This document shows, one piece after another, positions 31,261 to 32,153 of a DNA stretch of 64,000 nucleotides. Below the pieces are notes generated by a model. The model searched no databases. It worked only from the letters and a program-made list of their open reading frames with translations, and had not been told where the DNA came from. The stretch's first letter is position 1, and each line of letters starts with the position of its first letter. The translations under genes were made by a program, and so were the position numbers. Origin of the DNA: Octopus vulgaris (taxonomy: Eukaryota); NCBI GenBank assembly GCA_951406725.2, contig OX597822.1, forward strand, positions 82,336,001 through 82,400,000, in the 5' to 3' direction.

Positions 31261-31794
31261 CAATCAATAAAGCATGTCAGGTTGTGGATTCACAAATTAT
31301 GGACATTCCCTGTTAGCATCAGCCATGTTCATCAGAGCCTGACAAAAGGTGGCAATATGAGAATGGTTGCCAGTGAGCAGATGGTAAGGGAAAACTCCTG
31401 CACTGGTAGAGCCCTGTGTGAAATATAACATACATCCAGATCTATCTACACACACACACACACACACACACAAGCATACACATAAATACACATGCATATA
31501 TATAGTTTCATGATGTATTACGATTATATTTATCATTCATATGTATAGATGCAAATATATATATAATATACATACACACACACACACAAATGTGTATATA
31601 TCATCATCACCATCCCCATCATCATCAACATCATTCAACACCCACTTTTCTGTGCTTATATGGATCAAACAGAATTTGTTGAGGCAGACTTTCTACAGCT
31701 GCATGCCTTTCCTGTCACCAACCCTCATCTGTATCGAAGCAAGGCAATAGTTCACATGTATGACGGTGAGGCTTGTTTACAACCATCACATGAT

Positions 31795-32126
31795 CATTAT
31801 TTATATTACTTACATTATTTACATTTGACGATATTTGTCCTCATCTTTTTTTTGTTGTTAACACGTTTCGGCTGATATACCTTCCAGCCTTCATCAGGTG
31901 TCCTGGGGAAATTTCGAACCTGGGTTCTCATTCCTAAGGTATTTTTCGATGTATTTTTCAATACCTCAGGAATGAAAACCCAGGTTCAAAATTTCCCCAA
32001 GACACCTGATGAAGGCTGGAGGGTATATCAGCCGAAACATTATGTTAACAACAAACAGGATGAGGACAAATATCCCTCAAATGTAAAATAATGTACATAA
32101 TTCCTCATCTCTTAAATATAGAACTG
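31795..32126. mobile_element. Penelope-like inverted pseudo-LTR insertion with a hammerhead in each arm and an 11-bp TSD
   Basis: Arms ~31811-31943 and 31960-32095; catcacatgat duplicated at 31784-31794 and 32127-32137. Confidence 0.8.
32001..32046 (+). ncRNA. Minimal type I hammerhead ribozyme motif (mirror copy on minus at 31858-31902)
   Basis: GACAC CTGATGA aGGCTG gagggtatat CAGCC GAAA CA TT ATGTT; the mirror keeps GAAACG. Confidence 0.7.
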
Positions 32127-32153
32127 CATCACATGATGTCAAAACAAGAGTAT

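What the first reader, a model, noticed from the sequence alone, without database searches (positions are those of the whole stretch)
31784..32137. Complete 332-bp insertion: inverted hammerhead arms with an 11-bp TSD
Seen: arms of ~135 bp with a 16-bp spacer, each carrying CTGATGA-GGCTG/CAGCC-GAAA pointing outward, bounded by an exact catcacatgat duplication that splits an older repeat. Inference: the foldback was inserted as one unit at a staggered cut. It looks like a MITE but is probably a Penelope-type retro-insertion made of an inverted pseudo-LTR pair with no ORF.
Basis: partly seen in the sequence, partly recalled or inferred. Interest (0 to 1): 0.75.

Follow-up and report, generated by a model that had tools for sequence, protein, structure and literature searches.

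The report
Palindromic Penelope retroelement stump, octopus
This is a short, decayed, mirror-image remnant left by one jump of a Penelope-type retroelement in an octopus-like genome; the layout is already described for these elements, so it is a clear example rather than a new kind of thing.

Summary
A 332-bp insert (31795-32126) lies between exact 11-bp repeats and splits an older dispersed repeat. It holds two ~87%-identical inverted arms, each with an outward-facing minimal type I hammerhead.

Contigs from four runs of four organisms show a high-copy family with two 3' ends: one exactly at 32125/32126, next to the duplication, and one about 33 nt earlier. The right arm carries that 33-nt 'tail' and the left arm lacks it. 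Centres of other inverted pairs fall at many different positions. The 'spacer' is 9 nt of left arm plus 7 nt of copied filler.

This is the published Penelope-like element (PLE) layout: inverted pseudo-LTRs, a one-sided 30-40-bp tail and a short duplication. It is not a MITE. Each arm has family sequence the other lacks, which favours two separate priming events at one double cut, joined in the middle (inferred). The family majority core matches the published minimal hammerhead; both arms here are mutated and probably dead.

Not shown: the parent RT-endonuclease gene, duplication lengths of other copies, and cleavage. The scan noted the same layout before in a shark.

The parts
31784..31794 (.). 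Left copy of the 11-bp target-site duplication
   Evidence: Exact repeat, only two copies in the window
31795..31952 (-). Left arm: 5'-truncated pseudo-LTR copy ending at the family's short 3' end; ends in three 9-nt units (31795-31821, the middle one degenerate); extends 9 nt (31944-31952) into the so-called spacer
   Evidence: Alignment. 155-342 contigs per run match to 31952 and go on into (TAT)n; 124-181 contigs per run (laid on the right arm) show the short end after two 9-nt units
31860..31901 (-). Minimal type I hammerhead, left; 3-nt deletion at the cleavage site/stem I, probably inactive
   Evidence: Core at 31897-31891; other copies carry 3 more letters behind 31862. Inactivity is inferred
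31953..31959 (.). Centre filler: with 31951-31952 an exact direct copy of 31939-31947, a templated junction insertion
   Evidence: other copies diverge after 31952
31960..32093 (+). Right arm: 5'-truncated pseudo-LTR copy
32002..32046 (+). Minimal type I hammerhead, right (core 32006-32012, stem II 32014-32033, GAAA 32034-32037); G-to-A changes at 32039 and 32042 break the palindromic centre and stem I, probably inactive
   Evidence: G is the majority letter at 32039 (72-84% of summed depth) and 32042 (96-99%) in 4 of 4 runs; no cleavage-site/stem I match for this copy. Inactivity is inferred
32094..32126 (+). 33-nt one-sided 'tail', ending at the family's long 3' end
   Evidence: 434-629 contigs per run leave the reference into unlike flanks at 32125/32126. 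An Octopus bimaculoides predicted peptide reads arm and tail in one piece (P0002)
32127..32137 (.). Right copy of the 11-bp target-site duplication
31626..31794 (+). Left part of the older dispersed repeat that was the target
   Evidence: 66% identity to 46484-46319, plus 11 shorter matches to its core elsewhere in the window
32127..32153 (+). Right part of the older repeat, running into (CA)n
   Evidence: Contigs that join left-flank sequence to 32127/32128 with 20-22 letters on the short side; moderate support

Best explanation
A single, heavily 5'-truncated insertion of an endonuclease-type Penelope-like retroelement. The PLE protein cut both strands of the target 11 nt apart. Each free 3' end primed reverse transcription of the hammerhead-bearing pseudo-LTR RNA: the left from the short internal start site, the right from the start site 33 nt further on, which gives the one-sided tail. 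Both cDNAs stopped after about 160-170 nt, near an (AAT)n tract in the template, and were joined head-to-head by end-joining with a 7-nt templated filler. Gap filling gave the 11-bp duplication. The hammerhead is a passenger of the pseudo-LTR; both copies have since decayed. Shown: anatomy, two family ends, variable centres, family core. Inferred: double priming, end-joining, inactivity, and an age of very roughly 10 million years.
For: Long 3' end coincides to the base with the duplication (427/510/351/449 contigs at 32126, 107/119/83/105 at 32125) and a second end lies about 33 nt earlier (124/181/126/170 contigs), in 4 of 4 runs. Centre joints of other inverted copies lie at many different positions, 1-3 contigs each (15 of 272 joints shown). 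Each arm holds family sequence absent from the other: 31944-31952 on the left, the tail on the right. Published PLE layout: inverted pLTRs, 31-bp tail on one pLTR, 8-10-bp TSDs (PMC3846280; PMC8557442 Fig. 2 legend). Purified PLE protein cuts and extends both strands from two start sites that delimit the tail (PMC11167929). The family motif fits the published minimal-hammerhead consensus. In 3 of 8 metagenome loci with the same core, an RT plus GIY-YIG reading frame ends about 300 nt upstream.
Against: No parent ORF for this family was found: no PLE protein match in the window, none among 26 peptide hits, and contigs break in the (TAT)n tract. The metagenome loci share only the core that I searched for, not the arm. 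TSDs of other copies could not be seen and no listed contig spans this locus. The left end has a third 9-nt unit that I did not see in the family's loose-end consensus. Many rows were hidden. PMC3846280 prefers self-priming on an antisense template for inverted junctions.
Confidence: 0.85

Rival explanations
1. Same PLE family, but the second arm came from fold-back (self-priming) of one cDNA or of an antisense template rather than from a second primer. This rival concerns the mechanism only; the identity as a PLE stump is unchanged.
For: Self-priming is the reading offered for palindromic junctions in PMC3846280. A nearly perfect, spacer-free hammerhead palindrome lies at 58248-58582.
Against: Neither arm here contains all of the other, so one cannot be a plain copy of the other unless 9 nt were lost later at the centre. 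Fold-back does not explain why the short arm stops at the family's recurrent short end.
Confidence: 0.2
2. A PLE-derived non-autonomous element whose master copy is itself the palindrome and moves as a fixed unit.
For: Complete unit with TSD and no ORF. Non-autonomous PLE derivatives are reported (bioRxiv 10.64898/2026.07.22.740005; PMC8557442).
Against: No recurrent centre among the joints shown; other copies leave this centre at 31952. An RNA of the unit would be one -198 kcal/mol hairpin that buries the hammerhead. No second copy in the window.
Confidence: 0.07
3. A MITE or foldback derivative of a DNA transposon (Mutator-like elements have long inverted repeats and 9-11-bp TSDs; recalled, not tested).
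For: Long inverted repeats, no ORF, 11-bp TSD.
Against: The inverted repeat stops 10 nt short of the left end and 25 nt short of the right end. The family has two alternative ends and variable centres, and carries a hammerhead core of the kind found in PLE repeats.
Confidence: 0.03

Closest known systems
Endonuclease-containing Penelope-like elements with inverted pLTRs and tail (Arkhipova et al. 2013, PMC3846280; Craig et al. 2021, PMC8557442)
   Same: Head-to-head inverted pLTRs, 30-40-bp tail at one end only (33 here), short TSD (8-10 bp there, 11 here), strong 5' truncation.
   Different: Nothing of the ORF is left and no parent was identified, so the clade (Penelope/Poseidon, Neptune, Nematis) is open.
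Minimal type I hammerheads of metazoan PLEs (Cervera and de la Pena 2014, PMC4209133)
   Same: Extra base after A9, G10.1-C11.1, palindromic centre and 4-5-bp helix I in the family majority. The paper already notes pairs 100-700 bp apart on opposite strands in Schistosoma.
   Different: Both copies here are mutated in the 3' half; helix II is 5-6 bp rather than 7-8; I found no paper on this octopus family.
PAc Poseidon element of Anolis (Frangione et al. 2024, PMC11167929)
   Same: Two start sites that delimit a tail; both target strands cut and extended; hammerhead in the pLTR.
   Different: Shown in vitro for a lizard element; joining of two cDNAs into a palindrome was not shown in the text I read.
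Animal non-LTR retrozymes (bioRxiv 10.64898/2026.07.22.740005)
   Same: Short, non-coding, type I hammerhead, PLE-derived.
   Different: Retrozymes are head-to-tail tandem arrays; this is a head-to-head pair with one hammerhead per strand.
MITEs
   Same: Short, non-coding, long inverted repeats, TSD.
   Different: Asymmetric ends, two alternative ends, variable centre.

Membership tests
Penelope-like element insertion (EN+) | Inverted 5'-truncated pLTR copies joined head-to-head | tested here: met
   Arms and outward cores; variable centres in other copies
Penelope-like element insertion (EN+) | 30-40-bp tail at one end only | tested here: met
   33 nt at 32094-32126; two family ends in 4 of 4 runs
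Penelope-like element insertion (EN+) | Hammerhead motif in the pLTR | tested here: met
   consensus
Penelope-like element insertion (EN+) | Short TSD at this insertion | tested here: met
   11 bp, abutting the family end
Penelope-like element insertion (EN+) | TSD length varies between copies | not testable with these tools
   No genome held; short contigs show one end at a time; no family copy in collection scans
Penelope-like element insertion (EN+) | Parent ORF with RT and GIY-YIG endonuclease linked to this pLTR | tested here: inconclusive
   Not found for this family; found beside the same core motif in other organisms' loci
Minimal type I hammerhead | CUGANGA and GAAA boxes, extra base after A9, G10.1-C11.1, helix II | tested here: met
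   Both arms. N7 varies in the family at 32010 and 31893; G12 also varies, 9-13%, at a CpG; 73 rows were hidden
Minimal type I hammerhead | Palindromic centre, NUH site and helix I intact in this copy | tested here: not met
   Right arm has A at 32039 and 32042; left arm lacks 3 nt. Met by the family majority
Minimal type I hammerhead | Self-cleavage (as dimer or protein-assisted) | not testable with these tools
   Needs a bench assay
MITE | Inverted repeats reach both termini; fixed ends | tested here: not met
   10 nt and 25 nt lie outside the repeat; two alternative ends
MITE | Uniform internal structure across copies | tested here: not met
   Centre joints differ, 1-3 contigs each, in the 15 of 272 joints shown
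Non-LTR retrozyme | Head-to-tail tandem units with two or more same-strand hammerheads | tested here: not met
   One core per strand; criterion

The most novel reading that the evidence does not exclude
The template is not the end of a full-length PLE but a short (~180-nt) SINE-like parasite of PLEs, bounded by an (AAT)n tract and the tail. It is very abundant in octopuses, and its double-primed insertion builds new 300-bp hairpins across the genome: a ready source of double-stranded RNA in animals known for heavy A-to-I editing (recalled). Its thousands of junctions would also be a natural record for testing double priming against fold-back.
Probability: 0.25. Interest if true: 0.55.

Novelty: new member of a known kind. 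Interest (0 to 1): 0.27.

Why it matters
It is a compact, well-bounded example of how PLEs make inverted structures, a step the papers I read still call unresolved. The reciprocal asymmetry of the arms is a simple genome-wide test of double priming against fold-back. Such stumps are easily mis-annotated as MITEs or microRNA hairpins. The layout itself is in print, and PLEs cover 6.83% of the Octopus vulgaris genome (supplement of PMC13282606), so one decayed copy is ordinary.

Tried and rejected
No whole genome is held for the window, so no genome-wide copy count was possible. Rfam: no hammerhead family among the 150 of 165 matches shown; the locus hit only a microRNA hairpin model below its gathering score (57.6 against 100 bits), rejected. 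Single arms do not fold into a hammerhead by minimum energy (z -0.1 to -1.6), as expected for minimal motifs. The exact family pattern found nothing in viral or metagenome contigs; a looser pattern gave 8 loci with no similarity to the arm at E<0.01. My early idea that the spacer encodes the parent ORF's C-terminus was dropped: it is partly filler, and the family goes on into (TAT)n. The frame running through the hammerhead matched only short or repetitive predicted peptides and no RT domain; the four long hits with Pfam matches are unrelated and were set aside. No RNA holder was listed, which says nothing about expression. No listed contig spans the locus, so presence or absence at the orthologous site in other organisms is unknown. 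Solved-structure search of the L004 frame gave nothing significant; Pfam gave only a sub-threshold RT hit for L004 and none for L005. Earlier findings by place, sequence and genome were empty. Lunse et al. (PMC5785218) is not held. Paper searches listed no description of this octopus family; Repbase and Dfam could not be searched.

Full report
Observation. The 11-mer CATCACATGAT occurs exactly twice in the window, at 31784-31794 and 32127-32137, with 332 bp between. A comparable exact repeat arose in 13 of 4327 non-simple window pairs. Inside are inverted arms at 31805-31943 and 31960-32101, identical at 126 of 144 columns, folding at -198.1 kcal/mol, z -24.3. Hammerhead cores start at 32006 (+) and 31897 (-) and point outward. 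A core with a stem II of 5 bp or more occurs 4 times in the window against a mean of 0.125 in 200 shuffles. The left flank resembles a dispersed repeat (66% to 46484-46319). Contigs join left-flank positions to 32127/32128 (31694 and 31749 in all 4 runs, 31726 in 2), so the target repeat is split. The exact empty-site joint was not among the 15 of 272 joints shown, and the one window copy aligns poorly beyond the site.

Host. No genome is held. The two named protein hits to the arm's translation are Octopus bimaculoides predictions at 81-84% identity, so the family is in Octopus. The species of the window was not determined.

Family anatomy. I laid 31600-32156 on contigs of four runs from four coded organisms, chosen from 24 listed; 21,730-36,454 contigs were laid per run, including those on the host repeat. 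(a) Long 3' end: 427, 510, 351 and 449 contigs leave into unlike flanks after 32126, and 107, 119, 83 and 105 after 32125. The family therefore ends where the duplication begins. (b) Short 3' end: 124, 181, 126 and 170 contigs leave after 32087, continue through two 9-nt units and then diverge. The stretch between the ends, 32094-32126, is 33 nt. The left arm ends in such units (three here) and lacks the tail. Predicted peptides agree: P0002 reads through the tail, while P0006 and P0026 diverge after two units. (c) Upstream: 302, 342, 248 and 155 contigs match the left arm to 31952 and go on into (TAT)n, so 31944-31952 is family sequence. 31951-31959 is an exact direct copy of 31939-31947, making 31953-31959 a templated filler. 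(d) Centres of other inverted copies fall at many places (for example 31917/32004, 31935/31999, 31942/31992, 31947/32009, 31950/32092), each in 1-3 contigs per run. Depth there is not a copy number, and 257 joints, 73 letter rows and 2020 loose-end rows were hidden.

Hammerhead. The majority letters are G at 32039 (72-84%) and 32042 (96-99%), and other copies have 3 more letters behind 31862. It fits the minimal-hammerhead features of PMC4209133: extra base after A9, G10.1-C11.1, palindromic centre, 4-5-bp helix I. The free position N7 varies in both arms; G12 also varies by 9-13% at a CpG. The window's right core has lost the palindromic centre and a helix I pair, and the left has lost 3 nt at the cleavage site, so both are probably dead (inference). 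The two cores lie on opposite strands and a transcript would bury either in the long hairpin, so no cis dimer is possible. Rfam listed no hammerhead among the 150 of 165 matches shown.

Link to PLEs. No parent ORF was found for this family. A looser pattern gave 8 metagenome loci. In L004, L005 and L008 a long reading frame ends about 300 nt upstream of the motif, and L001 holds pieces of it. Its relatives are mostly 700-1100-residue proteins carrying PF00078 and often PF01541, which I recall as RT and GIY-YIG (PF00078 named). L005 and L008 are one family from one contig. These loci share only the searched core with the window, so they show that this motif type sits in PLE ends, not that this family has an autonomous parent.

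Mechanism. Each arm reads, from the outside in, as a cDNA primed at one end of an 11-nt staggered cut. PMC11167929 (main text read whole) shows a PLE protein cutting and extending both target strands from two internal start sites that delimit the tail, with hammerhead cleavage not required. Here the left arm used the short site and the right the long one. Each arm holds family sequence the other lacks, so neither is a plain copy of the other; two primings and an end-joined centre fit best. Fold-back, preferred in PMC3846280, needs a later loss at the centre. Arm divergence of 7-8% means about 4% per arm, very roughly 10 million years at the scale used in PMC13282606; CpG decay and gene conversion make this loose.

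Comparison with what is known. Inverted pLTRs, a 31-bp one-sided tail and 8-10-bp TSDs are described in PMC3846280 and summarised in PMC8557442 and PMC8969392. Opposite-strand minimal hammerheads 100-700 bp apart are noted in PMC4209133. It works like, and on every structural feature I could test is, a truncated EN+ PLE insertion; the ORF link is inconclusive. It fails the MITE and retrozyme tests.

What I saw of each paper. PMC4209133: parts 1-2 of 4 and passages of supplement file 2 (file 1 not searched; it may hold mollusc examples). PMC8557442: passages and section 6. PMC11167929: passages and section 3. PMC3846280: passages and section 11. PMC13282606: part 1 of 3 and supplement passages. 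bioRxiv 10.64898/2026.07.22.740005: part 1 of 5, supplements not seen. PMC6765202 and PMC8969392: passages. Lunse et al.: nothing, not held. Five searches listed no paper on this octopus family; repeat databases were not searchable.

Verdict. Interest 0.27.

Noticed in passing
window 58248-58582: A second hammerhead palindrome of unrelated sequence: arms 99.4% identical, no spacer, cores intact with a longer palindromic helix III; the left arm seems to run about 85 nt further, into (AT)n. Looks like a young PLE stump of another family.
   Followed up: partly
window ~5964 (+), ~49330 (+), ~9130 (-): Three copies, judged by eye, of a third repeat family with a minimal hammerhead in various states of decay.
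   Followed up: partly
window 41412-41855: Inverted 128-bp arms (91%) around a 188-bp middle that holds a degenerate hammerhead-like motif at 41647; no flanking direct repeat found.
   Followed up: no
window 977-1377: Inverted 102-bp arms (987-1088, 1212-1314) with a 12-bp direct repeat at 977 and 1366; possibly another foldback insertion.
   Followed up: no
window 8148-8378: Older near-perfect palindrome (74%) without spacer and without a hammerhead core.
   Followed up: no
window 38566-39405 and 9289-9663: Reading frames that look by eye like mariner-type transposase pieces and the end of a LINE reverse transcriptase; labels recalled, not searched.
   Followed up: no
proteins P0003-P0005, P0011, P0013-P0016: Predicted peptides with tandem repeats of about 40-45 residues related to the arm's translation; they suggest head-to-tail, retrozyme-like arrays of a sister hammerhead family.
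   Followed up: no
protein P0001: An Octopus bimaculoides dystrobrevin-beta isoform model begins with a piece of this repeat family: exonisation or a gene-model artefact.
   Followed up: no
L001-L002, L004-L005, L008: PLE-type elements in which the hammerhead is followed by a separate long, Gln/Pro-ending reading frame not recognised as RT; several near-identical copies suggest recent activity.
   Followed up: no
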